A stretch of 45,051 nt of DNA from Vectrevirus T145P2: sequence record OZ035747.1, one strand, 5' to 3'. Shown piece by piece: positions 3,117 through 28,913 of the stretch. Below the pieces are notes generated by a model. The model was not told where the DNA came from, made no database searches, and saw only the letters and a program-made list of their open reading frames with translations. Position 1 is the stretch's first letter; each line of letters opens with the position of its first letter. The position numbers and the translations under genes were made by a program.

Positions 3117-3410
3117 ATGGCTAAATATGGTACTACAGGTTCTGTTACTGGTCAGGCTTTTCGAGTAAAAGCAGTACAAACTATTGCAACGGCAATCCCG
3201 ATGCCTGTTGTTAAAGAAGCAGACCTTAAGAGTAAAGATCACCCTATCAACATCAAACATTTATCAGGTAAACAGAAAGGTGCAATGGTTGCTCTTGAGA
3301 AAAGTGACACAACCTTACATATTGCTGTTGCACGTGGTAGTGAACCAACAGACCCTTGGGATGTAACTGGCATGGAATCGCTCGCTGTCACTCCAGCAGG
3401 TGGAGAATAA
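3117..3410 (+). CDS. hypothetical protein, paralog B of a tandem pair
   Basis: AAGGAGG then ATG 3117; 97 aa; clear similarity to 2820..3098. Confidence 0.65.
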   Translation: MAKYGTTGSVTGQAFRVKAVQTIATAIPMPVVKEADLKSKDHPINIKHLSGKQKGAMVALEKSDTTLHIAVARGSEPTDPWDVTGMESLAVTPAGGE

Positions 3411-3754
3411 TGCTTAACAAATACTTCAAGCGCCGTGAGTTCGCTTGCCGTTGTGGGTGCGGTACATCCACTGTTGATGCTGAATTACTACAAGTAGTCA
3501 CAGATGTGCGTGAGCACTTTGGTTCTCCTGTAGTTATCACTTCTGGGCACCGCTGTGCTAAGCACAATGCTAATGTAGGAGGAGCTAAGAACTCCATGCA
3601 TCTTACTGGTAAGGCTGCTGACATTAAAGTTACTGGTATTGGGCCAATGGAGGTTCGTGCATACCTGTGCAATAAATACCCAGATAAATATGGTATTGGT
3701 GCTTATCCTACTTTCACTCATATTGATGTGAGGGATAATAAAGCACGATGGTAA
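3410..3754 (+). CDS. peptidase M15-family zinc peptidase, probable endolysin
   Basis: ATG 3410 overlapping previous stop; 114 aa; FACRCGCG, SGHRCAKHN, MHLTGKAADI and THID motifs characteristic of LAS/M15 peptidases. Confidence 0.78.
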   Translation: MLNKYFKRREFACRCGCGTSTVDAELLQVVTDVREHFGSPVVITSGHRCAKHNANVGGAKNSMHLTGKAADIKVTGIGPMEVRAYLCNKYPDKYGIGAYPTFTHIDVRDNKARW

Positions 3755-3879
3755 GATGCATTGAATGGTGTGAGCGCATGGTTGCTCAGGCTGCCGAGGA
3801 CGGCAACTATGATGACTGGAAGAACTACTCGGACTTGTTAGCTCAATGGAAAGGGAGATGTGATGAAAAAACTGTTTAA
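3748..3879 (+). CDS. small hypothetical ORF (43 aa)
   Basis: ATG 3748 overlapping endolysin 3-prime end; weak RBS; may be non-coding. Confidence 0.25.
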   Translation: MVRCIEWCERMVAQAAEDGNYDDWKNYSDLLAQWKGRCDEKTV

Positions 3880-4012
3880 GTCTAAGAAAGTGGTAGGTGC
3901 ACTAGTTGCACTGGTAATTGCCCTTGTTTCTGTAGGTCTTGGCGTAGACCTTGGTGAAGGTACGGAAGGTTCCGTCACTGACGTGGTATGCCAAGTAATC
4001 ACCTGTGAATAA
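3863..4012 (+). CDS. small membrane protein in lysis cassette (49 aa; holin/antiholin or spanin component)
   Basis: GGGAG then ATG 3863; MKKLFKSKK then 19-residue hydrophobic segment VVGALVALVIALVSVGLGV. Confidence 0.45.
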   Translation: MKKLFKSKKVVGALVALVIALVSVGLGVDLGEGTEGSVTDVVCQVITCE

Positions 4013-4089
4013 GGTGCTTGAGGTGGTGGCAGGTCTTATCGGCCTGCTGCTTGCCGCTAAGAAGAAGAAGGAAGACAAGGAGGCACAAA

Positions 4090-5953: not shown

Positions 5954-8389
5954 ATGATTCAAAGACTAGGTTCTTCATTAGTTAAATTCAAGAGTAAAAT
6001 AGCAGGTGCAATCTGGCGTAACTTGGATGACAAGCTCACCGAGGTTGTATCGCTTAAAGATTTTGGAGCCAAAGGTGATGGTAAGACAAACGACCAAGAT
6101 GCAGTAAATGCAGCGATGGCTTCAGGTAAGAGAATTGACGGTGCTGGTGCTACTTACAAAGTATCATCTTTACCTGATATGGAGCGATTCTATAACACCC
6201 GCTTCGTATGGGAACGTTTAGCAGGTCAACCTCTTTACTATGTGAGTAAAGGTTTTATCAATGGTGAACTATATAAAATCACGGATAACCCTTATTACAA
6301 TGCTTGGCCTCAAGACAAAGCGTTTGTATATGAGAACGTGATATATGCACCTTACATGGGTAGTGACCGTCATGGTGTTAGTCGTCTGCATGTATCATGG
6401 GTTAAGTCTGGTGACGATGGTCAAACATGGTCTACTCCAGAGTGGTTAACTGATCTGCATCCAGATTACCCTACAGTGAACTATCATTGTATGAGCATGG
6501 GTGTATGTCGCAACCGTCTGTTTGCCATGATTGAAACACGTACTTTAGCCAATAACGCACTAACCAATTGTGCATTGTGGGATCGTCCTATGTCTCGTAG
6601 TCTGCACCTTACTGGTGGTATCACTAAGGCTGCAAATCAGCAATATGCAACAATACATGTACCAGATCACGGATTATTCGTGGGCGATTTTGTTAACTTC
6701 TCTAATTCTGCGGTAACAGGTGTATCAGGTGATATGACTGTTGCAACGGTAATAGATAAGGACAACTTCACGGTTCTTACACCTAACCAGCAGACTTCAG
6801 ATTTGAATAACGCTGGAAAGAGTTGGCACATGGGTACTTCTTTCCATAAGTCTCCATGGCGTAAGACAGATCTTGGTCTAATCCCTAGTGTCACAGAGGT
6901 GCATAGCTTTGCTACTATTGATAACAATGGCTTTGTTATGGGATATCATCAAGGTGATGTAGCTCCACGAGAAGTTGGTCTTTTCTACTTCCCTGATGCT
7001 TTCAATAGCCCATCTAATTATGTTCGTCGTCAGATACCATCTGAGTATGAACCAGATGCGTCAGAGCCATGCATCAAGTACTATGACGGTGTATTATACC
7101 TTATCACTCGTGGCACTCGTGGTGACAGACTTGGAAGCTCTTTGCATCGTAGTAGAGATATAGGTCAGACTTGGGAGTCACTGAGATTTCCACATAATGT
7201 TCATCATACTACCTTACCTTTTGCTAAAGTAGGAGATGACCTTATTATGTTTGGTTCAGAACGTGCAGAAAATGAATGGGAAGCAGGTGCACCAGATGAC
7301 CGTTACAGGGCATCTTATCCTCGTACCTTCTATGCACGATTGAATGTAAACAATTGGAATGCAGATGATATTGAATGGGTTAACATCACAGACCAAATCT
7401 ATCAAGGGGACATTGTGAACTCTAGTGTAGGTGTAGGTTCTGTTGTAGTTAAAGACAGCTACATTTACTATATCTTTGGTGGTGAAAATCATTTCAACCC
7501 AATGACTTATGGTGACAACAAAAATAAAGACCCATTTAAAGGTCATGGACACCCTACTGATATATACTGCTATAAGATGCAGATTGCAAATGACAATCGT
7601 GTATCTCGTAAGTTTACATATGGTGCAACTCCTGGTCAAGCTATACCTACTTTCATGGGTACTGATGGGGTACGAAATATCCCTGCACCTTTGTATTTCT
7701 CAGATAACATTGTTACAGAGGATACTAAAGTTGGACACTTAACAATTAAAGCAAGCACAAGTTCCAATATACGATCTGAAGCGCAGATGGAAGGTGAATA
7801 TGGCTTTATTGGCAAGTCTGTTCCAAAGGATAACCCAACTGGTCAACGTTTGATTATTTGTGGTGGAGAAGAGACTTCGTCCTCTTCAGGTGCACAGATA
7901 ACTTTGCACGGCTCTAATTCAAGTAATGCTAATCGTATCACTTATAACGGAAATGAGCACCTATTCCAAGGTGCACCAATCATGCCTGCTGTAGATAACC
8001 AGTTTGCTGCTGGTGGGCCTAGTAACCGATTCACTACCATCTACCTAGGTAGTGACCCTGTTACAACTTCAGATGCTGAACACAAGTACGGCATCTCTAG
8101 TATTAATACCAAGGTGTTAAAGGCTTGGGGTAGAGTTGGTTTTAAACAGTATGGTTTGAATAGTGAAGCAGAGAGGAATCTTGATAGCATACACTTCGGT
8201 GTCTTGGCTCAGGATATTGTAGCTGCTTTTGAAGCTGAAGGATTGGATGCCATTAAGTATGGAATTGTGTCCTTCGAAGAAGGTAGGTACGGTGTGAGAT
8301 ATAGTGAAGTTCTAATCCTAGAGGCTGCCTACACTCGCCATCGTCTTGATAAATTAGAGGAGATGTACGCCGCTAATAAAATCAGTTAA
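5954..8389 (+). CDS. tailspike 2: endo-N-acetylneuraminidase (endosialidase) with C-terminal intramolecular chaperone domain
   Basis: AAAGGAGG then ATG 5954; 811 aa; C-terminal SDAEHKYGISS...LDSIHFGVLAQD region resembles the self-cleaving chaperone domain of K1-phage endosialidases (from memory). Confidence 0.85.
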   Translation: MIQRLGSSLVKFKSKIAGAIWRNLDDKLTEVVSLKDFGAKGDGKTNDQDAVNAAMASGKRIDGAGATYKVSSLPDMERFYNTRFVWERLAGQPLYYVSKGFINGELYKITDNPYYNAWPQDKAFVYENVIYAPYMGSDRHGVSRLHVSWVKSGDDGQTWSTPEWLTDLHPDYPTVNYHCMSMGVCRNRLFAMIETRTLANNALTNCALWDRPMSRSLHLTGGITKAANQQYATIHVPDHGLFVGDFVNFSNSAVTGVSGDMTVATVIDKDNFTVLTPNQQTSDLNNAGKSWHMGTSFHKSPWRKTDLGLIPSVTEVHSFATIDNNGFVMGYHQGDVAPREVGLFYFPDAFNSPSNYVRRQIPSEYEPDASEPCIKYYDGVLYLITRGTRGDRLGSSLHRSRDIGQTWESLRFPHNVHHTTLPFAKVGDDLIMFGSERAENEWEAGAPDDRYRASYPRTFYARLNVNNWNADDIEWVNITDQIYQGDIVNSSVGVGSVVVKDSYIYYIFGGENHFNPMTYGDNKNKDPFKGHGHPTDIYCYKMQIANDNRVSRKFTYGATPGQAIPTFMGTDGVRNIPAPLYFSDNIVTEDTKVGHLTIKASTSSNIRSEAQMEGEYGFIGKSVPKDNPTGQRLIICGGEETSSSSGAQITLHGSNSSNANRITYNGNEHLFQGAPIMPAVDNQFAAGGPSNRFTTIYLGSDPVTTSDAEHKYGISSINTKVLKAWGRVGFKQYGLNSEAERNLDSIHFGVLAQDIVAAFEAEGLDAIKYGIVSFEEGRYGVRYSEVLILEAAYTRHRLDKLEEMYAANKIS

Positions 8390-9435: not shown

Positions 9436-9658
9436 AGCAATCAGTCGGGAGCGACATTAAACACTCAGGGTGAATGATAGAGAGCGTCCTTAACTATCCG
9501 GCCTAGCTACTGAAGCCGTTAAACAATGTTAGATAGTGGAAGATGGCGCAAGCATAACCTACCACGATAAACCAAGGTTAGCGCAATGCTCTTTAACAAT
9601 TTGCTTAGTGTAACCTGTGTATGCCGTGGTTAATTACTTATTGAATGAGGGATTAACT

Positions 9659-9775
9659 ATGAATTACGAAGAAATGTATGAAGTCTATTTCGACTCATTA
9701 GATGAAGGAGAAGAAGCATTAACCTTCGCTGAGTTTATGGAGGCTTTATGGAGTTTCTATCATGACTCTAAATAA
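9659..9775 (+). CDS. small acidic early protein (38 aa)
   Basis: ATG 9659; first ORF after the host promoter; not in ORF track (<60 aa). Confidence 0.4.
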   Translation: MNYEEMYEVYFDSLDEGEEALTFAEFMEALWSFYHDSK

Positions 9776-9938
9776 CCGTGAACTATCCGTCCTCTTCACT
9801 CTGTTATGCTACATGATTCGTAACAACGAATTACTTACAGATGACGAGTTGGCACTATATCACCGCTTTCTTAACGAAGGTTGGACAGATACAGTTAACC
9901 ATAAACGTGACTTGATGAAGGAGTTAGGCAATGTATAA
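9762..9938 (+). CDS. small early protein (58 aa)
   Basis: ATG 9762; overlaps neighbours by a few nt as is common in T7-like early regions. Confidence 0.4.
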   Translation: MTLNNRELSVLFTLLCYMIRNNELLTDDELALYHRFLNEGWTDTVNHKRDLMKELGNV

Positions 9939-10140
9939 GCATGAGATTTACACGGCTTGCAATAAATCGGCTAAGGTTATCATTGAGATGTACAAGGCAG
10001 AATGTCAGGCGTACAACCTCAATGATGGTACCGAGATGTTTTATCTTCAGTTTGAAAGCAAGTTATCTCACAAACGAGTGATTAGCAGTCTTAATCAACA
10101 CTCTTTAGATTGGGAAGAAGTGAACAGCAATAAACTTTAA
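9931..10140 (+). CDS. early hypothetical protein (69 aa)
   Basis: ORF track; ATG 9931. Confidence 0.55.
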   Translation: MYKHEIYTACNKSAKVIIEMYKAECQAYNLNDGTEMFYLQFESKLSHKRVISSLNQHSLDWEEVNSNKL

Positions 10141-10148
10141 ATTAACTA

Positions 10149-10177
10149 TTGACAACCACGGCATACAAGGTTACATT
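10149..10177 (+). promoter_or_regulatory. candidate host sigma70 early promoter, twin of 9407
   Basis: TTGACA - 17 nt - TACATT, identical hexamers and AGGT before the -10 as at 9407. Confidence 0.55.
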
Positions 10178-10424
10178 AAGCATCAAGACGGCGACGTCTT
10201 TAAAAATCACGCTCTTTAACAATAGAGATTAGGCCGGGAGTATCGGTGTGAGGGATAAGGAGGCTTTCCCACAATTAAACTGGTGGCAAAAGGATTGCCC
10301 AGCTTTATAGCCCAGTTATGGATAGCAATAGCGTAAGGATGGCAGCACACCCGCGAGTCTAATCTCTAGCTCTTTAACAATCTGGCTAGTGCCTTGGTAG
10401 GCTAACTACTTACTAAGGTGAACT

Positions 10425-10637
10425 ATGAACTACTGCGACATCGCTCACGAATTACGCATGGAACGTGAGAAACAAGAAAGGCGGATTATCAAGAAGATGG
10501 CTGTACTGCTTGCACACTATAAGGCAGACAAACAGCCAACACATGATGAGTTCGTTGACTTCTGTAACATGTATCTTAATGTGAGTAAGGCCACTGGTTA
10601 CAGATGGCTTAAAGCACTGAATGATGGAGAATTGTAG
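10425..10637 (+). CDS. early hypothetical protein (70 aa), possible small DNA-binding protein
   Basis: AAGGTGAACT then ATG; C-terminal SKATGYRWLKAL resembles a helix-turn-helix. Confidence 0.55.
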   Translation: MNYCDIAHELRMEREKQERRIIKKMAVLLAHYKADKQPTHDEFVDFCNMYLNVSKATGYRWLKALNDGEL

Positions 10638-10736
10638 TAATAAGCCAGCTTAATAGCTGGCCTATCAAGGCACTAACCTAGCTCTTTAACAATCTGGTTT
10701 GTGTCTTGATAGGCTTACTAACAAAGGTGAACTATC

Positions 10737-10901
10737 ATGACTAACGCACAACGTAAACGCTATGATGCATTGCAAGAGAAACTTGCTGTTGCTTATGCCG
10801 CTTGGCAAGCTAACACAGACAAGAGCAAACACGATAAACTTTATAGTAAAGTGGTTGCAATTAATGCTAAAATAGATAAACTTGTGAATAGTATCTTATA
10901 A
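10737..10901 (+). CDS. small early protein (54 aa), predicted helical
   Basis: ATG 10737 after AAAGGTGA; followed by hairpin 10909-10924. Confidence 0.45.
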   Translation: MTNAQRKRYDALQEKLAVAYAAWQANTDKSKHDKLYSKVVAINAKIDKLVNSIL

Positions 10902-11050
10902 GATAGTTGCTGGCACTAGCCAGCCTATCAAGGCACAAGCCACGCTCTTTAACAATATGGGTAGTCGCTTCTTAGTCTGGATAGGTTAAACCTAGGGTAT
11001 TCTTTTGAGTGCCCTATAATGTAAACTAACTAACTAATGAGGATTAAATC

Positions 11051-11384: not shown

Positions 11385-11498
11385 ATGGAAAGGCAATATA
11401 ACTTCATATTTTCAGACGGTGTAACCCTGAAATGTTCCTTACGATTTGCGCAGATTCGTGAGGAAGTGCTAGGTACTACATACAAACTATTTAGCTGA
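11385..11498 (+). CDS. small early protein (37 aa)
   Basis: GAGGA then ATG 11385. Confidence 0.35.
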   Translation: MERQYNFIFSDGVTLKCSLRFAQIREEVLGTTYKLFS

Positions 11499-11512
11499 CA
11501 CTATAAGAGAAG
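11489..11512 (+). promoter_or_regulatory. variant phage RNAP promoter-like site
   Basis: ATTTAGCTGACACTATAAGAGAAG; SP6-like upstream half, altered initiation region. Confidence 0.4.
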
Positions 11513-11574
11513 GCTTAACAAGGCGTTGCTACGGTAGCGCCTGATTAAACTTTCACTTACTAGAGGTTAAGATT

Positions 11575-11700
11575 ATGAAACTATCGCCATCCGCTAAAGG
11601 CCTCATTGCAGAACTTAAAGATTCTTTGAGGAATCCAATCATTTGGGCACTTATCTACATACCTTATGGTATCTACCTATTTCACCTCATCACTGAGTAA
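11575..11700 (+). CDS. small hydrophobic early protein (41 aa)
   Basis: AGAGG then ATG 11575; IIWALIYIPYGIYLFHLI hydrophobic segment. Confidence 0.4.
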   Translation: MKLSPSAKGLIAELKDSLRNPIIWALIYIPYGIYLFHLITE

Positions 11701-11763
11701 CTAGCCTATAGCCTACCTGAGTGGGCTATGTGATACTTACTTACACTATATAAGGTGATTACT

Positions 11764-12648
11764 ATGACTACTGAAAACGTCCTCCTGTCTGTTCGTGAAG
11801 CTGCAACCGCTGAAATCAAGCAGCACTTAGACAATATCGGCACTTCTTACATCAAAGTTGGCGCTTGTCTGAATGAATTACGCGGTGATTTCGAAGGTCA
11901 AAAAGACTTTTTAGCTTATGTAGAATCAGAGTTCGGCATCAAGAAGGCACAATGTTACAAGCTGATGAGTGTAGCCCGTGTCTTTGAAGGAGATGATCGC
12001 TTTAAAGGCGTGGCGATGCGTGTAATGCTGGCGCTTGTTCCTTTCGCTGATGAAAATATAATCATGGAGAAGGCCGCAGAACTCGCCGCAGCTGGCAAGC
12101 TGGACACTAATGCCGTAAACGCCCTGATTGAACCTAAGAAAGAGATAAAGACTGAAACGGTACAATCTAAGGCTGAGGCGGTAAAACCGCAGGAGAACGC
12201 TACTGAGGCCGCAGAATCACAGGAAATGCAAGCGCCGCAGGTAGTGCCACCAGCGAGCGAGCAGGAGGCCGACGAATCAGCACCATGGGAAGAGGAAAGC
12301 AAGCCGGAAGCGCCAAAGGCAGCGCCGCTGGATAACACGGCTAATACAGAAAACGCCGCTATGGCTAGCCTCTTAGCACAAATTAAGGCACTGACTGAGC
12401 AATTACAGGCAGCTAATGACCGCATCGCCTCCTTAAGTAGCGCACGCGAAAGCAAGAAGGCAGCCGCACCTATGCTGCCGCAATTCAAATCTTCCTGCTT
12501 CTATGCTCGCTTAGGTTTAAGCGCTGAGGAGGCAATGAAGAAAACAGCAGTTAACAAGGCACGCCGCGAACTGGTTAAGCTAGGCTACGGTGAAGGCCAT
12601 GAAGCATGGCCCTTAATCTCTGAGGCAGTAGAAGAGTTGACTAAGTAA
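11764..12648 (+). CDS. early protein with DUF3102-like N-terminal domain, acidic Ala/Pro-rich linker and small C-terminal domain
   Basis: TAAGG then ATG 11764; 294 aa; LRGDFEGQKDFLAYVESEFGIKKAQCYKLM motif; low-complexity EAAESQEMQAPQ linker. Confidence 0.7.
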   Translation: MTTENVLLSVREAATAEIKQHLDNIGTSYIKVGACLNELRGDFEGQKDFLAYVESEFGIKKAQCYKLMSVARVFEGDDRFKGVAMRVMLALVPFADENIIMEKAAELAAAGKLDTNAVNALIEPKKEIKTETVQSKAEAVKPQENATEAAESQEMQAPQVVPPASEQEADESAPWEEESKPEAPKAAPLDNTANTENAAMASLLAQIKALTEQLQAANDRIASLSSARESKKAAAPMLPQFKSSCFYARLGLSAEEAMKKTAVNKARRELVKLGYGEGHEAWPLISEAVEELTK

Positions 12649-12711
12649 CCTTATCGGTGGCATCTTCTTAGGTGTCACCTATTAAGGTTTCTTTCACTAG
12701 GAGTAAACAAG

Positions 12712-15339
12712 ATGCAAGACCTACACGCTATTCAACTTCAACTTGAAGAAGAAATGTTTAACGGCGGTATCCGTCGCTTTGAAGCTGACCAACAACGCCA
12801 GATTGCATCCGGTAATGAATCAGACACGGCATGGAATCGACGCTTATTGTCCGAACTAATCGCACCTATGGCGGAAGGTATTCAGGCTTACAAGGAAGAA
12901 TACGAAGGCAAGAGAGGTCGTGCACCCCGTGCATTAGCTTTCATTAACTGCGTAGGAAACGAAGTGGCAGCATATATCACCATGAAAATCGTTATGGATA
13001 TGCTGAATACAGACGTTACCTTACAAGCTATCGCTATGAATGTAGCAGACCGCATCGAGGACCAAGTACGTTTTAGCAAGCTGGAAGGTCACGCAGCTAA
13101 GTATTTTGAGAAAGTGAAGAAGTCGCTTAAGGCTAGCAAGACTAAATCTTATCGTCATGCGCACAACGTAGCGGTAGTAGCTGAGAAATCTGTTGCTGAC
13201 CGTGACGCGGATTTCTCCCGTTGGGAGGCATGGCCTAAAGACACCTTGCTGCAAATCGGTATGACCTTGCTCGAAATATTGGAGAATAGTGTATTCTTCA
13301 ATGGTCAACCTGTCTTCCTTCGTACCTTGCGCACTAACGGCGGAAAGCATGGTGTTTACTATTTACAGACCAGTGAACATGTTGGCGAGTGGATAACTGC
13401 ATTTAAGGAACATGTAGCTCAGCTCAGCCCTGCCTATGCACCTTGCGTTATACCTCCCCGCCCTTGGGTATCACCTTTTAACGGTGGGTTTCATACTGAG
13501 AAAGTAGCAAGCCGTATTCGTCTGGTAAAAGGCAATCGTGAGCACGTCCGCAAGCTGACCAAAAAGCAAATGCCAGCCGTTTATAAGGCTGTTAACGCTT
13601 TGCAGGCAACTAAGTGGCAGGTTAATAAAGAGGTTTTACAGGTTGTGGAGGACGTTATACGTCTAGACCTCGGCTATGGTGTGCCTTCCTTTAAACCACT
13701 CATCGACCGTGAGAACAAGCCAGCTAATCCAGTGCCGTTAGAGTTCCAGCACCTGCGAGGCCGTGAACTTAAAGAGATGCTAACGCCGGAACAATGGCAA
13801 GCCTTCATCAACTGGAAAGGCGAATGTACCAAGCTGTATACCGCTGAAACTAAGCGCGGCAGCAAATCGGCGGCGACCGTCCGCATGGTTGGGCAGGCAC
13901 GTAAATACAGCCAGTTTGACGCCATCTACTTCGTGTATGCACTGGACAGCCGCAGCCGCGTCTACGCGCAATCTAGCACGCTCTCTCCGCAATCAAACGA
14001 CTTAGGCAAGGCATTGCTCCGTTTTACCGAAGGGCAGCGCCTCGATAGCGCTGAGGCGCTTAAATGGTTTTTGGTGAACGGGGCTAATAACTGGGGTTGG
14101 GATAAGAAGACTTTTGACGTGCGCACCGCTAACGTGCTGGATAGTGAATTTCAAGACATGTGCCGCGACATTGCAGCGGATCCGCTTACCTTCACTCAAT
14201 GGGTGAATGCCGACTCCCCTTACGGCTTCCTTGCTTGGTGCTTTGAATATGCGCGTTATCTGGATGCACTGGATGAAGGCACGCAAGACCAATTCATGAC
14301 GCACCTCCCCGTCCATCAAGATGGTAGTTGTTCTGGTATCCAGCACTACAGTGCTATGCTACGCGATGCAGTAGGTGCGAAAGCAGTAAACCTTAAGCCC
14401 TCTGATTCTCCTCAAGATATTTATGGTGCCGTTGCGCAGGTAGTAATTCAGAAGAATTATGCATACATGAATGCAGAGGATGCGGAAACCTTCACTTCTG
14501 GCAGCGTGACTTTAACAGGTGCGGAACTGCGTAGCATGGCTAGTGCGTGGGATATGATAGGAATCACTCGCGGCCTGACCAAAAAGCCCGTAATGACACT
14601 ACCTTACGGCAGCACACGTCTAACCTGCCGTGAGTCAGTGATTGATTATATCGTTGATTTGGAAGAAAAAGAGGCCCAACGGGCTATTGCGGAAGGGCGT
14701 ACCGCCAATCCTGTACATCCTTTTGATAATGACCGCAAAGACAGCCTGACACCTAGCGCAGCTTATAACTATATGACAGCTTTAATCTGGCCTTCTATTT
14801 CGGAAGTGGTTAAAGCTCCTATAGTGGCAATGAAAATGATTCGTCAGCTTGCACGTTTCGCAGCTAAAAGAAACGAAGGCTTAGAATATCCCTTACCAAC
14901 TGGCTTCATCTTGCAACAAAAGATAATGGCTACCGATATGCTCCGCGTATCCACTTGCTTGATGGGTGAAATCAAGATGAGTCTCCAGATTGAAACAGAT
15001 GTAGTTGATGAAACGGCAATGATGGGTGCGGCTGCTCCTAACTTCGTCCATGGTCACGATGCTAGCCACCTGATTCTGACTGTATGTGACCTAGTGGATA
15101 AAGGTATTACATCCATTGCAGTCATCCATGATTCTTTCGGTACTCATGCAGGACGTACCGCAGACCTGCGGGATAGCTTAAGGGAAGAAATGGTTAAGAT
15201 GTATCAAAACCATAATGCCCTGCAAAACCTGCTAGATGTGCACGAAGAGCGTTGGTTAGTAGACACCGGAATCCAAGTACCAGAGCAAGGAGAGTTTGAC
15301 CTTAACGAAATCTTAGTTTCAGACTATTGTTTCGCATAA
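12712..15339 (+). CDS. single-subunit DNA-directed RNA polymerase (T7 gp1-like)
   Basis: 875 aa; collinear with T7 RNAP including PFCFLAFCFEY-like [27 protein letters not shown] and IHDSFGTHA motifs. Confidence 0.97.
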
Positions 15340-15807: not shown

Positions 15808-17796
15808 ATGGCTATTATTCAGAATGTACCGTGTCCCGCCTGTCAAAAGAATGGACATGATATTACTGGCAACCATCTTATGATATTTGAGGATGGCGCT
15901 GGTTACTGTAACCGTGGTCACTTCCATGATAACGGCAAGCCTTATTACCATAAGCCAGAGGGTGGCATCGAGATAACCGAATTACCTATTACTGGCAATA
16001 TCAAATATACACCTTCTCAGTTTAAAGAGATGGAGAAGGAAGGGAAGATTAGCGACCCTAAGCTACGCGCCATCGCACTTGGTGGTATGCGTATGAAAGA
16101 CCGTTGGGAGGTTATGAATGAGCAAGAAAGGGCAGACCAAGAAGCAGAGTGGAAACTTGATGTTGAATGGTTCCTCACGCTTAAGCGTAAGAATCTTGTT
16201 TCCCGACACATTCGCGGCGACATTTGCGCATTGTATGATGTACGTGTCGGACACGATGAAGATGGTAGAGTCTCACGGCATTACTATCCACGCTTCGAGA
16301 AAGGTGAGCTAGTAGGCGCCAAGTGTCGCACATTACCTAAAGACTTTAAGTTTGGTCATTTAGGTAAACTCTTTGGTATGCAAGATCTTTTCGGTATGAA
16401 TACTTTGTCTCACGTGTTAGACAAGGGAAGACGAAAGGATTGCTTGCTTATTGTGGGCGGCGAACTGGATGCACTAGCAGCACAGCAGATGCTCCTTGAT
16501 TCTGCCAAGGGTACTAAGTGGGAAGGCCAGCCTTACCATGTATGGTCTGTCAATAAAGGTGAGTCTTGCCTTGAAGAGATAGTGCAGAACCGTGAGCATA
16601 TCGCCCAATTCAAGAAGATTATATGGGGTTTTGATGGAGATGAGGTGGGGCAGAAGCAGAATCAGCAAGCGGCTCGCCTGTTTCCTGGCAAATCCTATAT
16701 CCTTGAATACCCTTCTGGTTGCAAAGATGCTAACAAGGCATTGATGGCTGGCAAGGCTAAAGAGTTTGTTGATGCTTGGTTTAATGCCAAGTCATCTGAT
16801 GAAGTCTTTGGTAGCCAGATTAAATCTATCGCATCTCAAAGGGATAAGCTCAAGGCTGCACGTCCAGAGCAAGGGTTATCATGGCCTTGGCCTAAGCTGA
16901 ACAAGGTAACGCTAGGTATTCGTAAGAACCAGCTTATCATTGTAGGTGCAGGCTCTGGTGTAGGTAAGACTGAGTTCCTCCGCGAAGTGGTTAAACATCT
17001 TATTGAAGAACACGGTGAATCTGTAGGCATCATTTCTACAGAAGACCCGATGGTCAAGGTGTCCCGTGCTTTTATCGGCAAGTGGATTGATAAGCGTATT
17101 GAGTTACCGCCAACCAACGACCCGAAAGAAGACGGATACCGTGAGGTGTTCGACTACACCGAGGAAGAAGCTAACGCTGCCATTGATTATGTGGCTGATA
17201 CAGGAAAGCTATTTGTGGCTGACCTAGAAGGCGACTATTCTATGGAGAAGGTAGAGCAAACTTGCCTAGAGTTTGAGGCTATGGGCATTTCTAATATCAT
17301 CATTGATAACTTAACGGGGATTAAATTAGATGAGCGTGCTTTTGGTGGGAAGGTTGGTGCACTTGATGAATGCGTCAAACGAATTGGTACTATCAAAGAC
17401 CGACATGCGGTTACGATTTTCCTTGTCTCTCACCTTACACGTCCTCCGGCAAACCGTACCCAACACGAAGAAGGTGGCGAAGTTATCCTTTCTGACTTCC
17501 GAGGCTCAGGCGCTATCGGATTCTGGGCATCTTACGCCTTGGGGATTGAGCGTAATACAAGAGCTGAAACGCTTGATGAAAGGACTACCACGTACATCTC
17601 TTGTGTCAAAGACCGCGACCAAGGTATCTACACAGGAACCAAAGTCATGCTCAAGGGTGACATTCAGACCGGGCGTTTGAGAGAACCACAAGCTAGAACA
17701 AGGTCGTTTGATACAGGCGAAGCAAGGCAACAAGAAGTACCGGATTTACCGGACACTATAGAAGAGACAACCTTTGACGATGAACAGGAGTTTTAA
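15808..17796 (+). CDS. DNA primase/helicase (T7 gp4-like)
   Basis: 662 aa; N-terminal Cys4 zinc motif CPACQKNGHD...YCNRGH; Walker A GAGSGVGKTEF; acidic C-terminus ending DDEQEF. Confidence 0.95.
   Translation: MAIIQNVPCPACQKNGHDITGNHLMIFEDGAGYCNRGHFHDNGKPYYHKPEGGIEITELPITGNIKYTPSQFKEMEKEGKISDPKLRAIALGGMRMKDRWEVMNEQERADQEAEWKLDVEWFLTLKRKNLVSRHIRGDICALYDVRVGHDEDGRVSRHYYPRFEKGELVGAKCRTLPKDFKFGHLGKLFGMQDLFGMNTLSHVLDKGRRKDCLLIVGGELDALAAQQMLLDSAKGTKWEGQPYHVWSVNKGESCLEEIVQNREHIAQFKKIIWGFDGDEVGQKQNQQAARLFPGKSYILEYPSGCKDANKALMAGKAKEFVDAWFNAKSSDEVFGSQIKSIASQRDKLKAARPEQGLSWPWPKLNKVTLGIRKNQLIIVGAGSGVGKTEFLREVVKHLIEEHGESVGIISTEDPMVKVSRAFIGKWIDKRIELPPTNDPKEDGYREVFDYTEEEANAAIDYVADTGKLFVADLEGDYSMEKVEQTCLEFEAMGISNIIIDNLTGIKLDERAFGGKVGALDECVKRIGTIKDRHAVTIFLVSHLTRPPANRTQHEEGGEVILSDFRGSGAIGFWASYALGIERNTRAETLDERTTTYISCVKDRDQGIYTGTKVMLKGDIQTGRLREPQARTRSFDTGEARQQEVPDLPDTIEETTFDDEQEF
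17744..17766 (+). promoter_or_regulatory. phage RNAP promoter inside 3-prime end of the primase-helicase gene
   Basis: ATTTACCGGACACTATAGAAGAG. Confidence 0.7.
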
Positions 17797-23053: not shown

Positions 23054-23860
23054 ATGGCACGTGGTGATTTTGATTTTGGTGCTCAGGTTACTAAAGCTGA
23101 AGGTAAAGTATTTAAGAACCCTGAAGTTGGTGATCATGAAGCAGTAATCTCTGGCATCATTCATGTTGGTTCCTTCCAAGATATCTTTAAGAAAGGTAAT
23201 ACCACTGAAGTTAAGAAGCCAGCAAACTTTGTTCTTGTTAAGATTATCCTGATGGGTGACGACGATAAGAATGAAGATGATTCTCGCATGGAACAATGGA
23301 TGGCTGTGCCTCTGAAGTCTGGTGATAAGGCAACACTGACTAAGTTCCTGAATGCAGTTGACCCTAAAGAGTTGCTGGGTGGCTTCGATGATTTTATCGG
23401 TGAATGTCTGACTGCAACTATGGTTGGTTCTGGCGACAAGAATGATGATGGTACTTTCAAGTATGTTAACTGGAAAGGCTTTGGCGGTATGCCTGATAAG
23501 TTGAAGAAGCTTGTACTGGCTCAGGTAGAGGAGGAAGGTCTGTCTATGACAGGTCATATCACCTTCGACAAGCTGACCAAAGAAATCCTTGATGACATCC
23601 CAGCTAACTTGGTACGTCAATACTTCCTGAACGAGACACCTCGTGGTAAGAACCTGTCTGTTGCTGGCTCTCACGTAGAAGCTATTATCAAAGCTGCTCG
23701 TGAAGAAGACCCTGAATGGAAGAAGGCTAAGAAGAAAGACGAGGAAGATGCTACCCCAGCTAATCGTAAATCTCTGGATACTGGTGAGTCTGTTCCACAG
23801 GAAGTACCTGAAGCAGAAGATACTCCTGCACCGGAGATGGATGAGGACGCGGAATATTAA
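23054..23860 (+). CDS. abundant acidic-tailed protein, candidate ssDNA-binding protein (gp2.5-like role)
   Basis: 268 aa; strong codon bias (the opposite strand is stop-free for 1.1 kb); acidic C-terminal tail ending DEDAEY; function is inference. Confidence 0.45.
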   Translation: MARGDFDFGAQVTKAEGKVFKNPEVGDHEAVISGIIHVGSFQDIFKKGNTTEVKKPANFVLVKIILMGDDDKNEDDSRMEQWMAVPLKSGDKATLTKFLNAVDPKELLGGFDDFIGECLTATMVGSGDKNDDGTFKYVNWKGFGGMPDKLKKLVLAQVEEEGLSMTGHITFDKLTKEILDDIPANLVRQYFLNETPRGKNLSVAGSHVEAIIKAAREEDPEWKKAKKKDEEDATPANRKSLDTGESVPQEVPEAEDTPAPEMDEDAEY

Positions 23861-24193: not shown

Positions 24194-24565
24194 ATGTTCA
24201 AGATTGAAACTATCGTAAACCGTGTTGTTAAAGGTGCTGCTCTGGTATCCGTTGAGTCTTTCATTATCGTCGATGAAGCTGATCAACTGGTAGCTGGTAC
24301 TAAGGCTTACGATACCCGTGAAGAAGCTCAGGCTAAGATTGACAGCATGGGTAACTTCGCTGCTGGTCTGGAGTTCGCTCGTGCTTGCTTCCCTGAGCAG
24401 GCTGACAAAGCCCAGATCGGGAAGGCTAACATCGTAGCTGAATATCTGGATTGGATTGCTGCTGGTAAACCAGTGAAAGAAGTTAAAGCTACTGAAGAAG
24501 CTGAAGCTCCTGCAGTAGAAGTGTCTGCACCGGAAGCTCCGGTTAGCGAAGAGGAAGAGTTTTGA
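24194..24565 (+). CDS. small acidic protein with C-terminal acidic tail ending in Phe (123 aa), own promoter and terminator
   Basis: ORF track; tail APEAPVSEEEEF; flanked by promoter 24121 and terminator 24625. Confidence 0.7.
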   Translation: MFKIETIVNRVVKGAALVSVESFIIVDEADQLVAGTKAYDTREEAQAKIDSMGNFAAGLEFARACFPEQADKAQIGKANIVAEYLDWIAAGKPVKEVKATEEAEAPAVEVSAPEAPVSEEEEF

Positions 24566-26312: not shown

Positions 26313-27312
26313 GCTTCGCAGCTTGTACAAAGACTCCGAGGTACTTGATGCAATCGAGCAAGCTACCGACGAGAAAGGTAATGTTAACTACAACGAGATG
26401 GCACGGGTATTATCGTGTCACCCTGTGGGTAAGAAGATTACCCGCCAGTTGGCTCGATACTGGCATGGTCAATTCAAGAAGACCAAGAAGAATGGTGATT
26501 ACTACCAGACTCTTCTGCAAGAGGATAAGCGTATCAAAGAAGAGCGTAAGCTCAGGACTCCTGACCGCTACGAGGATTTGGCTATTGTACCACTGCCTGA
26601 CTCGCCTCATCGAAGTGTACTGGTAATCCCTGACACTCATGCACCTTACGAGCACCCAGATACCTTAGAGTTTCTGGCAGCGGTGGCAGCACGTTACCGT
26701 CCAGACACTGTAGTTCATCTGGGTGATGAGGCAGATAAACATGCCTTATCGTTCCACGATTCAGACCCCAATCTGGATAGTGCTGGCATGGAGTTAGAGA
26801 AGGCCCGTGTCTTTATGCATAAATTACACAAGATGTTTCCTGTGATGCGCCTGTGTCATTCTAATCACGGCTCTATGCACTTCCGTAAGGCAAGCGCTAA
26901 GGGTATCCCTGTGCAATACTTGCGTACCTATCGAGAAGTCTTCTTTCCGCATGGGGGTGGCGACCAGTGGGATTGGCAGCATACACACGTTCTTGAGTTG
27001 CCGAATGGTGAACAGGTTGCATTTAAGCATCAACCAGCAGGCTCAGTCTTAGCAGATGCAGCGCATGAGCGCATGAACTTAGTGTGCGGTCACTTGCATG
27101 GTAAGATGTCGGTGGAGTATGCACGTAACACACATGAACAGTATTGGGCTGTGCAGGGCGGCTGTTTGATTGATGAGTCATCTCGTGCATTTGCCTATGG
27201 TCGTGAGTCCAAATACAAGCCAGCATTAGGTTGTGTGGTTATTCTGGAGGGTGTGCCGCACATTGTCCCGATGCAGACCAATAGTGACAATCGCTGGATT
27301 GGTAAGATTTAG
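26272..27312 (+). CDS. calcineurin-like metallophosphoesterase (start uncertain: TTG 26272, ATG 26278 or TTG 26305 with strong SD)
   Basis: VIPDTHAPYEHPD ... HLGDEADKH ... GHLHGK metal-binding motifs. Confidence 0.8.
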   Translation: MLMQERRRRLKLGKLRSLYKDSEVLDAIEQATDEKGNVNYNEMARVLSCHPVGKKITRQLARYWHGQFKKTKKNGDYYQTLLQEDKRIKEERKLRTPDRYEDLAIVPLPDSPHRSVLVIPDTHAPYEHPDTLEFLAAVAARYRPDTVVHLGDEADKHALSFHDSDPNLDSAGMELEKARVFMHKLHKMFPVMRLCHSNHGSMHFRKASAKGIPVQYLRTYREVFFPHGGGDQWDWQHTHVLELPNGEQVAFKHQPAGSVLADAAHERMNLVCGHLHGKMSVEYARNTHEQYWAVQGGCLIDESSRAFAYGRESKYKPALGCVVILEGVPHIVPMQTNSDNRWIGKI

Positions 27313-27329
27313 TTGACACTATAGAACAA
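27307..27329 (+). promoter_or_regulatory. phage RNAP promoter, SP6-like subclass
   Basis: ATTTAGTTGACACTATAGAACAA, one mismatch from the SP6 promoter ATTTAGGTGACACTATAGAA. Confidence 0.75.
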
Positions 27330-27852: not shown

Positions 27853-27969
27853 ATGACTTGTCCTAATTGTGGAAGTGAAGAAACAGAACATGTAGTTATG
27901 TCAGATACTTATCATTTCTATTTCTGTCATAACTGCGACACTACCATTGAAGAGGAAGAAGCTGTATGA
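27853..27969 (+). CDS. small zinc-ribbon protein (38 aa)
   Basis: CPNCG ... CHNCD pair of CxxC; overlaps neighbours. Confidence 0.4.
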   Translation: MTCPNCGSEETEHVVMSDTYHFYFCHNCDTTIEEEEAV

Positions 27970-28913
27970 ATATCTTTGAGTTCCTAGGTCTTCCAGAAGA
28001 TCACCGCAATCACCCATTCATGCTAGTGAAACATCGCGGTGAAGTCCCTGAGAAGAAACTTACTTTTCCATGTTATGGACAGGTGAAACGAGATGGTATC
28101 TTTTCTGCTGTTGTTGTTCGCACTGATGGTGTCGTTGGCGTTTTTGGTCGCACTGGTAAGAAACTGGCAAACACTGAAGTCCTCGAACAAACATTTGCTA
28201 CCTTTCCGGTTGGCATTTATCTTGGTGAGCTTCAGTCTATGGCCGTTGATATCTACCTTGAAGCTCTATCAGGGGTGGTAAATCCTAATCGTACAGAGCC
28301 GCTTGACTTTATAGGCCAGCAGATTAAAGACAACCTGTATATCGACTTCTTCGATATGTTAACCATTAAGGCATTCCATGATGGATTCACTGATGTTTCT
28401 TATCTCAAACGTTACGATGCTTTACATCGTCGCATCGGCGCTCATCTTAGCGGGTACAACGCTATCCTTCCTATTACTCCTTGCCATAATGAGCGAGAAG
28501 TTGAAGCGTTTGCGCAAGAGCAAATAGACGCAGGCCGAGAGGGTGCTGTGTTTAAACTGGACTGTGATTATGAAGCAGGCCACAAAGGTTATCGTCAGAC
28601 TAAAGAAGTCCGTAAGGTAACTTATGACCTTACTTGTATTGGCTTTGAAGAAGGCAAAGGTAAGTACAAAGGTAAGGTAGCTAACCTCATTTTCAAATGG
28701 AAAGGAGGCAAGACAATCAAAGCTATGTTAGGTAAAGGGTGGACTCATGCAGATGCAGAACAGATGTTCCACGATATTAAACATGGTGGACGATTGAATG
28801 TCATTGGTAAAATCTTTGAAGTAAAAGGTCTTCAGGATTCAAGCAAGGGCAACATTCGTCTGCCCAAAGCGGGAGAATTAAGACATGACAAAGATGAACC
28901 AGATTTCTTTTGA
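27966..28913 (+). CDS. ATP-dependent DNA ligase
   Basis: 315 aa; motif I KRDG; C-terminal RLPKAGELRHDKD resembles ligase motif VI. Confidence 0.85.
   Translation: MNIFEFLGLPEDHRNHPFMLVKHRGEVPEKKLTFPCYGQVKRDGIFSAVVVRTDGVVGVFGRTGKKLANTEVLEQTFATFPVGIYLGELQSMAVDIYLEALSGVVNPNRTEPLDFIGQQIKDNLYIDFFDMLTIKAFHDGFTDVSYLKRYDALHRRIGAHLSGYNAILPITPCHNEREVEAFAQEQIDAGREGAVFKLDCDYEAGHKGYRQTKEVRKVTYDLTCIGFEEGKGKYKGKVANLIFKWKGGKTIKAMLGKGWTHADAEQMFHDIKHGGRLNVIGKIFEVKGLQDSSKGNIRLPKAGELRHDKDEPDFF

What the first reader, a model, noticed from the sequence alone, without database searches (positions are those of the whole stretch)
11764..12648. Early 294-aa protein with DUF3102-like N-terminal domain replaces the T7 gene 0.7 position
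The gene sits where T7 encodes the gp0.7 kinase/host-shutoff protein, but no kinase motifs are visible. The N-terminal domain carries a motif I associate with DUF3102/HTH-like phage and plasmid proteins, followed by an acidic Ala/Pro/Glu low-complexity linker and a small C-terminal domain (FYARLGLSAEEAMKKTAVNKARRELVKLG) that faintly resembles a J-domain without the HPD motif. A variant phage promoter at 11489 lies just upstream.
Basis: inference. Interest (0 to 1): 0.4.

Follow-up and report, generated by a model that had tools for sequence, protein, structure and literature searches.

The report
Early phage adaptor protein, HTH plus J-like

Summary
The ORF is real: 11764-12648 (+), 294 aa, under purifying selection (dN/dS 0.13-0.18). 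It is the K1E/K1-5 gp6 = SP6 gp7 homologue in a Vectrevirus genome, lying between ocr and the SP6-type RNA polymerase. Databases call it "hypothetical" (PHROG 4571, unknown function).

- Residues 127-190 form a disordered acidic linker.

New findings:
- A four-heptad coiled coil at aa 193-230.
- A conserved linker motif, acidic-x-[AVP]-P-[FW]-[DE].
- The J-like domain is the most constrained part of the protein.
- The family sits upstream of the RNAP gene across several Autographiviridae lineages.
- It coexists with a true gp0.7 kinase homologue in Vibrio phage φA318, so it is not a functional stand-in for gp0.7.

Most likely it is a self-associating, nucleic-acid-binding adaptor that docks a conserved host partner. 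The mechanism is inferred, not shown.

The parts
11489..11511 (+). Variant phage-RNAP promoter-like site, ATTTAGCTGACACTATAAGAGAA. Predicted +1 = A at 11506. It overlaps the last codons of gp4.
   Evidence: It keeps the -9..-1 core GACACTATA. It differs from the window consensus at -12, -10 and +1. It is identical in K1E and K1-5. No counterpart was found in the first 6.3 kb of SP6. Activity not tested.
11501..11563 (+). Stable RNA hairpin just downstream of the promoter-like site, upstream of gp5 and gp6.
   Evidence: MFE -26.6 kcal/mol, z -5.8. It appeared as a generic hairpin in the Rfam scan. A role as an RNase III-type processing site is inferred from memory of T7, not tested.
11750..11755 (+). 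Shine-Dalgarno sequence AAGGTG for the ATG at 11764.
   Evidence: Read directly from the sequence.
11764..12648 (+). CDS of the 294-aa early protein (K1E/K1-5 gp6, SP6 gp7 family, PHROG 4571).
   Evidence: (E 1.8e-130). dN/dS 0.13-0.18.
11785..12141 (+). N-terminal six-helix domain (aa 8-126). It is a remote DUF3102 homologue with a KorB/ParB-type HTH DNA-binding-domain fold.
11899..11985 (+). Putative helix-turn-helix (helices aa 46-57 and 61-74), including the conserved KKAQxYKLM second helix.
   Evidence: Helices are from the AF2 model. Family conservation: K61 97% K/R, K60 65%, K66 75%, position 69 70%, Q63 65%, Y65 80%, W/Y52 92%, F74 95%. Assigning these helices as the DNA-reading HTH is an inference.
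12142..12333 (+). Disordered acidic Ala/Pro/Glu linker (aa 127-190).
   Evidence: pI 4.14. pLDDT 47-57. Only 26% identity to SP6.
12280..12297 (+). Conserved short linear motif in the linker: A-P-W-E-E-E (aa 173-178). Family form: (D/E)(D/E)-x-[AVP]-P-[FW]-[DE].
   Evidence: P[WF][DE] occurs in 38 of 122 family linkers, against 2.3±1.5 (maximum 8) in 1000 shuffles. Examples are listed.
12340..12453 (+). Long helix with about four leucine-zipper-like heptads (aa 193-230); probable self-association element.
   Evidence: AF2 helix 193-230, pLDDT >90 for aa 201-220. The heptad pattern M200/L203/I207/L210/L214/A217/I221/L224 was read from the sequence. L203, L210 and position 217 are conserved. Weak Pfam coiled-coil hits. 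Oligomeric state not tested.
12475..12486 (+). Conserved L-P-Q-F motif (aa 238-241) preceding the J-like domain.
   Evidence: L238 96%, P239 78%, Q240 78%, F241 91% across 125 representatives.
12493..12645 (+). C-terminal J-like domain (aa 244-294): helices I-III of the J fold, no helix IV.
12583..12600 (+). Loop G274-Y-G-E-G-H279 occupying the HPD position (Y275-G276-E277 align to H-P-D).
   Evidence: hhalign alignment. Family alignment shows GYGxGH or Y/F-T/N-x-x-x-N/C here and no HPD, except in the most distant and doubtful hit.
12647..12689 (+). Stable hairpin between the gp6 stop codon and the RNAP start codon.
   Evidence: MFE -22.5 kcal/mol, z -4.75. Partial copy of the repeated early-region element (D3).
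12712..15339 (+). SP6-type single-subunit RNA polymerase gene. It is the conserved downstream neighbour of this family.
   Evidence: The same neighbourhood is seen in SP6, VEN, RCIP0089, Achelous, CPP1m, ECBP5 and two metagenomic podoviruses.

Best explanation
The gene encodes the SP6 gp7 / K1E gp6-family early protein, a non-enzymatic modular adaptor.

Shown:
- It is a real, selected gene of the early region, next to the RNAP gene.
- Its N-domain belongs to the DUF3102 superfamily and has the fold of KorB/ParB HTH DNA-binding domains.
- It has a disordered acidic linker carrying a conserved P-[W/F]-acidic motif.
- It has a ~4-heptad amphipathic helix.
- Its C-terminus is a J-domain homologue that lacks HPD and helix IV.

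Inferred:
- The protein self-associates through the coiled coil.
- It binds nucleic acid, most likely DNA, through the basic KKAQxYK helix of the HTH.
- It uses the highly constrained LPQF + J-like module, and possibly the linker motif, to dock a conserved host or phage protein.
- The Hsp70 (DnaK/DnaJ) system is the leading candidate partner. Without HPD the domain cannot act as a canonical ATPase-stimulating co-chaperone. It would be a tether, decoy or regulator of the Tim16 type.
- It is expressed early from host promoters as part of the polycistronic early transcript. In Vectrevirus it may also be expressed from the variant phage promoter at 11489.
For: - Identity and conservation.
- Purifying selection, strongest on the J-like domain.
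- DUF3102 homology.
- KorB/ParB-type fold from a pLDDT-94 model.
- Conserved basic residues concentrated on helix 61-74 and at R86.
- Disordered acidic linker.
- Linker motif enriched about 17-fold over shuffles.
- Coiled-coil helix.
- J-domain homology and fold without HPD.
- No enzymatic, defence or kinase family detected.
- Conserved placement 0-4 small genes upstream of the RNAP gene in divergent Autographiviridae.
Against: - No binding, expression or phenotype data exist in the searchable literature.
- The N-domain is mildly acidic overall, pI 5.2.
- No sequence-level similarity to ParB/KorB was found. Foldseek against the PDB was not significant, E 3.4.
- The loop at the HPD position is not conserved across the wider family, and HPD is normally needed for productive Hsp70 contact. 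The partner may therefore be something else.
- Some relatives upstream of RNAP genes lack the J-like domain altogether.
- The oligomeric state was not modelled.
Confidence: 0.5

Rival explanations
1. Host-transcription shut-off factor. The protein binds E. coli RNA polymerase or a sigma factor rather than DNA. It would do the job that gp0.7 (C-terminal shut-off function) and gp2 do in T7.
For: - The window has no homologue of T7 gp0.7 or gp2, so some other early product must deal with host RNAP (this need is argued from general knowledge of T7).
- The gene occupies the gp0.7 slot.
Against: - There is no similarity to any known RNAP-binding phage protein.
- φA318 carries both this gene and a gp0.7 homologue, so it does not simply substitute for gp0.7.
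- The best fold matches are DNA-binding ParB/KorB domains, not sigma or anti-sigma factors.
Confidence: 0.15
2. Phage-directed regulator or partner of the phage RNA polymerase, or of the early-to-middle switch. It would bind phage DNA or the RNAP itself, for example as an autoregulator of the gp6-RNAP unit.
For: - Tight, lineage-spanning adjacency to the RNAP gene, kept even when the C-terminal domain differs.
- In Vectrevirus a phage-type promoter-like site lies upstream of gp5-gp6-RNAP. One is annotated upstream of the kinase and RNAP genes in φA318.
- KorB, the best structural match, is a repressor.
Against: - The adjacency may only reflect that both are the last genes of a conserved early operon.
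- No repeated operator-like palindrome was found near the gene.
- The recognition-type helix is conserved across phages whose promoters differ.
- SP6 has no phage promoter in this region.
Confidence: 0.15
3. Replication or recombination interference through the linker. The acidic ...(A/V/P)-P-(F/W)-(D/E) motif would mimic the acidic-aromatic tails of SSB (DDDIPF) or of T7-type gp2.5/gp4. It would bind host SSB-interacting enzymes or the phage DNA polymerase, while the HTH holds the protein on DNA.
For: - The motif is the only conserved feature in an otherwise fast-evolving linker: 38 of 122 against 2.3 expected.
- Some copies read EDEDDIPFD.
- Several replication-region ORFs of this phage end in acidic-aromatic tails.
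- T7 gp2.5 ends ...SWDEDDEESEEADEDGDF.
- Bona fide DUF3102 proteins sit between cro and DnaB-type helicase genes in prophages.
Against: - The motif is internal, whereas SSB-tail recognition uses the free C-terminal carboxylate (established knowledge, not tested here).
- Only about a third of the family representatives have the motif.
- The resemblance is recalled from memory, not scored.
Confidence: 0.1
4. A canonical J-domain co-chaperone that stimulates DnaK ATPase, like the T4-type phage RB43 Rki protein.
For: J-domain homology and fold. Basic helix II retained (K265, R267, R268, K272).
Against: - The HPD tripeptide, indispensable for ATPase stimulation, is replaced by Y-G-E in this protein. 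It is absent in essentially all of the 125 representatives.
- Helix IV is missing.
Confidence: 0.03

Closest known systems
SP6 gp7 / K1E gp6 / K1-5 gp6 (PHROG 4571)
   Same: Direct orthologues. They have the same 294-aa length and the same position upstream of the RNAP gene. Identity is 98% (K1E), 94% (K1-5) and 64-65% (SP6).
   Different: Nothing substantive. All are annotated as hypothetical, or mis-annotated as 'endolysin', 'andolysin' or 'late transcription factor VLTF-4' in some records.
DUF3102 (Pfam PF11300) proteins of prophages and bacteria
   Same: Homologous N-terminal helical domain (hhalign 98.7%, E 3.7e-16; reciprocal PHROG hits). They are also early-operon phage genes, lying right after cro in alphaproteobacterial prophages.
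   Different: - The window protein itself falls below the Pfam threshold.
- The second HTH helix reads KKAQxYKLM here, against S..TA..FM in DUF3102 proper.
- The prophage proteins showed no J-domain (DnaJ) Pfam hit in the precomputed annotations; the linker motif was not checked in them.
- The function of DUF3102 is itself unknown; only 3 incidental literature mentions were found.
KorB / ParB / SopB / VirB HTH DNA-binding domains
   Different: - No ParB N-terminal CTPase/Srx domain.
- No ParB-type C-terminal dimerisation domain; a coiled coil is present instead.
- No detectable sequence similarity.
- No partner ParA, and no parS- or operator-like repeats were found.
J-like proteins lacking HPD, e.g. 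Tim16/Pam16
   Different: - It is fused to an HTH domain, an acidic linker and a coiled coil.
- It ends after helix III.
- It is preceded by a family-specific LPQF motif.
- No evidence of pairing with a true J-domain protein.
T7 gp0.7 (protein kinase / host shut-off)
   Same: Same map position: after ocr and the small early genes, directly before the RNAP gene. It is flanked by stable hairpins reminiscent of the RNase III sites of the T7 early mRNA (the RNase III comparison is from memory).
   Different: - No sequence or family similarity.
- A genuine gp0.7 homologue coexists with a gp6 homologue in φA318.
DNA-binding proteins fused to J-domains (E. coli CbpA, polyomavirus large T antigen)
   Different: Those proteins have N-terminal J-domains with intact HPD and act through Hsp70. 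Here the J-like domain is C-terminal and lacks HPD.

Membership tests
K1E gp6 / SP6 gp7 family (PHROG 4571) | Full-length match to the family profile. | tested here: met
   E 1.8e-130, residues 1-294 against profile positions 1-287 of 289. 98% (K1E) and 64-65% (SP6) identity.
K1E gp6 / SP6 gp7 family (PHROG 4571) | Early-region position upstream of the single-subunit RNAP gene. | tested here: met
DUF3102 (PF11300) | The protein itself scores above the Pfam gathering threshold (24.4 bits). | tested here: not met
   No PF11300 hit even at E<=10. Most homologues that do hit are below threshold, e.g. 19.9-22.3 bits.
DUF3102 (PF11300) | Profile-level homology to bona fide members over the domain. 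| tested here: met
   - hhalign of a phage-clade-only profile against 33 PF11300 proteins: 98.7%, E 3.7e-16, 100 columns.
- 41 of 125 representatives hit PF11300 at E<=0.01; of the ten re-scanned individually, two exceed the threshold (P0246 39.3 bits, P0239 25.0 bits).
- Reciprocal hits of DUF3102 proteins to PHROG 4571.
J-domain proteins (PF00226 / Hsp40 co-chaperones) | J-domain fold (helices I-III hairpin). | tested here: met
J-domain proteins (PF00226 / Hsp40 co-chaperones) | Sequence-profile similarity to J-domains. | tested here: met
   - Family profile against PDB: top hits are almost all J-domains, best E 6.7e-5.
- hhalign 96.1%, E 3.6e-9.
- 13 of 125 homologues hit PF00226, all below the gathering score where inspected.
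- The window protein alone gives no hit.
J-domain proteins (PF00226 / Hsp40 co-chaperones) | Invariant His-Pro-Asp tripeptide between helices II and III. | tested here: not met
   Y275-G276-E277 align to HPD. No HPD is seen across the family alignment, except in the weakest hit, P0251.
J-domain proteins (PF00226 / Hsp40 co-chaperones) | Stimulation of Hsp70/DnaK ATPase. | not testable with these tools
   Needs biochemistry.
ParB/KorB family | HTH DNA-binding domain of the ParB/KorB type. | tested here: inconclusive
ParB/KorB family | N-terminal ParB/Srx CTP-binding domain. | tested here: not met
   No ParBc-type Pfam hit in the protein, and none among the 25 most frequent families in the 125 homologues. 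The protein starts directly with the DUF3102 helices.
ParB/KorB family | Specific binding to parS or operator DNA. | not testable with these tools
   No candidate repeated operator was seen nearby. Needs EMSA or ChIP.
T7 gp0.7 kinase family | Sequence similarity to the gp0.7 kinase domain. | tested here: not met
   tblastn of T7 gp0.7 against the window: best E 3.8, at an unrelated locus. As a positive control, φA318 gp04 matches gp0.7 at E 4e-33.

The most novel reading that the evidence does not exclude
The protein would be the founding example of a widespread class of podovirus early 'tethered decoy' factors. A DNA-bound, coiled-coil dimer uses an HPD-less J-like domain to capture or block the host DnaK/DnaJ machinery (Tim16-style). 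It also uses an internal SSB-tail-like P-[F/W]-acidic motif to engage genome-maintenance enzymes or the phage replisome at the entering phage genome. This would give the first function to the DUF3102 superfamily, which spans at least six PHROG families, all of unknown function.
Probability: 0.12. Interest if true: 0.7.

Novelty: new variant of a known kind. Interest (0 to 1): 0.42.

Why it matters
SP6/K1E-type phages lack detectable homologues of T7 gp0.7 and gp2 (for this genome). How they take over the host is therefore largely unknown. K1-specific Vectreviruses are also used as therapeutic and diagnostic phages.

This gene is one of the few early genes conserved from enterobacterial to Vibrio, Pseudomonas and marine podoviruses, and it is always found near the RNAP gene.

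A precise domain map turns a 'hypothetical protein' into a set of testable hypotheses. The map now includes a KorB-like HTH, a linker motif, a zipper, and an HPD-less J-like domain that is the most constrained part.

It also gives a structural handle on DUF3102. That domain is common in phages and prophages, has no assigned function, and has essentially no literature.

It is a useful lead rather than a surprise. Nothing here contradicts current understanding of T7-like phages.

Tried and rejected
- Single-sequence searches of the window protein found nothing significant: Pfam, NCBIfam, PADLOC and PDB sequences.
- The first hhalign run (E 1.6e-22) was discarded. The query alignment contained P0246, which also headed the DUF3102 alignment. 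It was repeated with phage-clade sequences only.
- The N-domain profile against PDB sequences gave nothing.
- The AFDB Foldseek library was unavailable.
- Literature searches for SP6 gp7, K1E gp6, DUF3102, phage J-like proteins and Molineuxvirinae host takeover found no functional data. The SP6 genome paper is not held under the PMC id I tried from memory.
- The search for operator-like repeats around the gene found only the early-region hairpin elements.
- The Rfam scan found only a generic hairpin.
- Kinase and gp0.7-replacement ideas were rejected.
- A canonical co-chaperone role was rejected because HPD is missing.
- The 177-aa antisense ORF at 11955-12488 is judged a by-product of the Ala/Glu-rich coding strand. 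This rests on inference: the annotated genes in this region of related phages are all on the + strand.

Full report
**What the window is.** The 1.35 kb around the finding is 93-99% identical to K1E, K1-5 and many other Vectrevirus genomes (Autographiviridae, Molineuxvirinae). The window is a circularly permuted complete genome of that type. K1E gp6 lies at 3156-4040 of its record, against 11764-12648 here.

**The observation.** The ORF listing gives one ORF, 11755/11764-12648 on the + strand.
- The ATG at 11764 follows an AAGGTG Shine-Dalgarno. It yields the 294 aa annotated for K1E gp6, K1-5 gp6 and SP6 gp7.
- The protein matches PHROG 4571 (unknown function) end to end, E 1.8e-130.
- It is found in 213 phage records, 348 90%-identity clusters and 131 50%-identity representatives.
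- Nei-Gojobori dN/dS against K1E, K1-5 and SP6 is 0.13-0.18.
- The gene lies after an ocr homologue (T7 gp0.3, E 8.5e-29) and two tiny ORFs, and directly before the SP6-type RNAP (T7 gp1, E 1e-119). This is the slot of gene 0.7 in T7.
- The window has no detectable homologue of T7 gp0.7, gp2 or gp2.5.

**N-terminal domain.**
- Alone, the protein gives no significant hit in Pfam, NCBIfam, PADLOC or PDB sequences.
- I aligned 125 representatives (A1) and scanned each against Pfam. 41 hit DUF3102 (best 9.1e-10) and 13 hit DnaJ (best 1e-5). The DUF3102 hits cover profile positions ~22-73, which correspond to query residues ~20-75.
- I collected bona fide PF11300 proteins and aligned 33 of them (A4).
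- A first hhalign run shared a sequence between the two alignments, so I discarded it.
- A profile of 15 phage-clade N-domains only (A5) still aligns to DUF3102 at 98.7% probability, E 3.7e-16, over 100 columns.
- In return, prophage DUF3102 proteins hit PHROG 4571 (E 3.5e-9 and 1.4e-6).
- AF2 models the domain as six helices, pLDDT 94.4.
- Family-wide conserved basic and polar residues cluster on helix 61-74 (K60, K61 97% K/R, Q63, Y65, K66, position 69) and at R86. This fits a nucleic-acid-binding face.
- Against that, the domain's overall pI is 5.2, and there is no sequence similarity to ParB-family proteins. DNA binding is therefore an inference.

**Linker and coiled coil.**
- Residues 127-190 are acidic (pI 4.1), Ala/Pro/Glu-rich, and modelled with pLDDT about 47-57. 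They are only 26% identical between this phage and SP6.
- Within the linker, the sole aromatic residue sits in A-P-W-E-E-E (aa 173-178).
- Across the family, P-[WF]-[DE] preceded by acidic residues occurs in 38 of 122 linkers. Shuffled linkers give 2.3±1.5, maximum 8 in 1000 trials. This marks a short linear docking motif.
- The resemblance to the SSB C-terminal tip, and to the acidic-aromatic tails of T7 gp2.5/gp4, is noted from memory only.
- Residues 193-230 form one long helix with a 3-4 spacing of M/L/I/L/L/A/I/L. This is probably a short zipper.

**C-terminal domain.**
- A conserved L-P-Q-F (aa 238-241) precedes a ~50-residue three-helix module.
- A profile of 41 such modules (A3) retrieves almost exclusively J-domains from PDB sequences (RabJ 6.7e-5, DNAJC5, DnaJ, DNAJA/B members, CbpA).
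- H-P-D aligns to Y275-G276-E277. No HPD occurs in the family alignment, apart from the weakest and doubtful hit.
- The protein ends after helix III.
- This module is the most constrained part: 93% identity to SP6, dN/dS 0.03-0.05.
- It is therefore a J-like domain, not a functional J-domain in the co-chaperone sense.

**Context elsewhere.**
- Family members lie 0-4 small genes upstream of the RNAP gene in:
  - SP6;
  - Vibrio phage VEN;
  - Klebsiella phage RCIP0089;
  - Pseudomonas phage Achelous;
  - Marinomonas phage CPP1m;
  - E. coli phage ECBP5;
  - two metagenomic podoviruses. One of these (P0248) lacks the J-like module but keeps the DUF3102 domain and a PPWEE motif.
- Many marine relatives carry an extra 70-250-residue N-terminal extension.
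- In Vibrio phage φA318 the order is gp6 homologue, then a true gp0.7 kinase homologue (39% identity to T7 gp0.7, E 4e-33), then RNAP. The two genes are therefore not alternatives.
- Bona fide DUF3102 proteins in alphaproteobacterial prophages sit immediately after cro, opposite a CI-type repressor and upstream of a DnaB-type helicase. They too are early, DNA-transaction-associated genes.
- All related PHROGs are 'unknown function'. DUF3102 has only three incidental literature mentions. No paper in the library assigns a function to SP6 gp7 or K1E gp6.

**Expression signals.**
- The window's phage promoters fit ATTTAC(T/C)GGACACTATAGAAGAG.
- The site at 11489-11511 (ATTTAGCTGACACTATAAGAGAA) keeps the GACACTATA core. 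It has G at -12, T at -10 and A at +1. The site at 27307 shares the first two of these, as does the classical SP6 promoter.
- The site is identical in K1E and K1-5 but overlaps the end of the gp4 ORF. No counterpart was found in the corresponding SP6 region.
- Stable hairpins flank the gp5-gp6 unit: 11501-11563 (z -5.8) and 12647-12689 (z -4.75). They belong to a set of repeated early-region elements. These probably correspond to RNase III processing sites of a host-transcribed early mRNA, but that rests on memory of T7 and is untested.

**Interpretation.** The domain architecture is well supported. The mechanism is inferred.
- The protein has no enzymatic signature. It looks like an adaptor made of an HTH domain of DNA-binding type, a flexible acidic tether with a docking motif, a self-association helix, and a strongly constrained protein-interaction module of J-type that cannot act as a canonical Hsp70 activator.
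- I consider a DNA-associated, self-associating adaptor that recruits or blocks a conserved host partner to be the most likely reading. The Hsp70 system is the first candidate partner.
- The rivals are direct RNAP shut-off, regulation of or partnership with the phage RNAP, and SSB-tail mimicry directed at replication or repair proteins.
- A kinase role and a canonical co-chaperone role are rejected.

**Verdict.** The gene is a known but uncharacterised family. The architecture is not described in the literature available here, so I class it as a new variant of known kinds of modules. Interest is moderate.

Noticed in passing
window 9585-10957 (copies at 9585, 10208, 10366, 10678, 10941): Five copies of the intergenic motif GCTCTTTAACAAT lie between early genes. 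Three are embedded in ~60-nt imperfect hairpins, e.g. 10659-10715 (MFE -29 kcal/mol, z -6.0). They probably correspond to T7-type RNase III processing sites; this is from memory and untested.
   Followed up: partly
window 11734-11756: A second, weaker phage-promoter-like sequence, TACTTACTTACACTATATAAGGT, lies immediately upstream of the gp6 start codon and overlaps its Shine-Dalgarno. It matches the core ACACTATA only.
   Followed up: no
window 11489-11511 and 27307-27329: These are the only two promoter-like sites with TGACACTATA (T at -10) and G at -12. They resemble the SP6 promoter more than the K1E-type consensus used elsewhere in the genome (GGACACTATA).
   Followed up: partly
window 11575-11700: The ORF between gp4 and gp6 (the gp5 position) is only 41 aa here, against 75 aa in K1E and 62 aa in K1-5. 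Matches to K1E and K1-5 break into two pieces at this point, whereas T145P2 and ULINTec4 are colinear with the window.
   Followed up: no
L014 (Vibrio phage phi-A318) 1021-2884: A gp6 homologue is directly followed by a genuine homologue of the T7 gp0.7 kinase domain (39% identity over 170 aa, E 4e-33). Neither that protein nor T7 gp0.7 itself hits any Pfam family.
   Followed up: yes
L007, L008, L009 (alphaproteobacterial prophages), gene at 7001-7981 / 7001-7954: Bona fide DUF3102 proteins are encoded immediately after cro, divergent from a CI/S24-type repressor and upstream of a DnaB-type helicase. This is the slot of cII/O in lambdoid phages.
   Followed up: partly
homologues P0129-P0235 (alignment A1): Most marine and metagenomic relatives carry an additional 70-250-residue helical N-terminal extension with a recurring '...TLK.AK....(A)RTK..F...' pattern. 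It is absent from the SP6/K1E clade and gave no consistent Pfam hit.
   Followed up: no
window 15808-17796, 23054-23860, 24194-24565, 27966-28913: Several ORFs on the + strand end in acidic tails with a terminal aromatic residue (…FDDEQEF, …DEDAEY, …SEEEEF, …DEPDFF). They recall the tails that T7 gp4 and gp2.5 use to bind the DNA polymerase.
   Followed up: no
window 11955-12488 (- strand): A 177-aa antisense ORF lies inside the gene. It is Ala/Ser/Cys-rich and is most likely a compositional by-product of the GC-richer (49.8% against 44.9%) Ala/Glu-rich coding strand.
   Followed up: no
GenBank records KY295893, KY295891/NC_047806, NC_047807, MN384978, PP179317: In some deposited genomes, homologues of this protein are labelled 'endolysin', 'andolysin' or 'late transcription factor VLTF-4'. 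Nothing in the sequence supports these names.
   Followed up: partly
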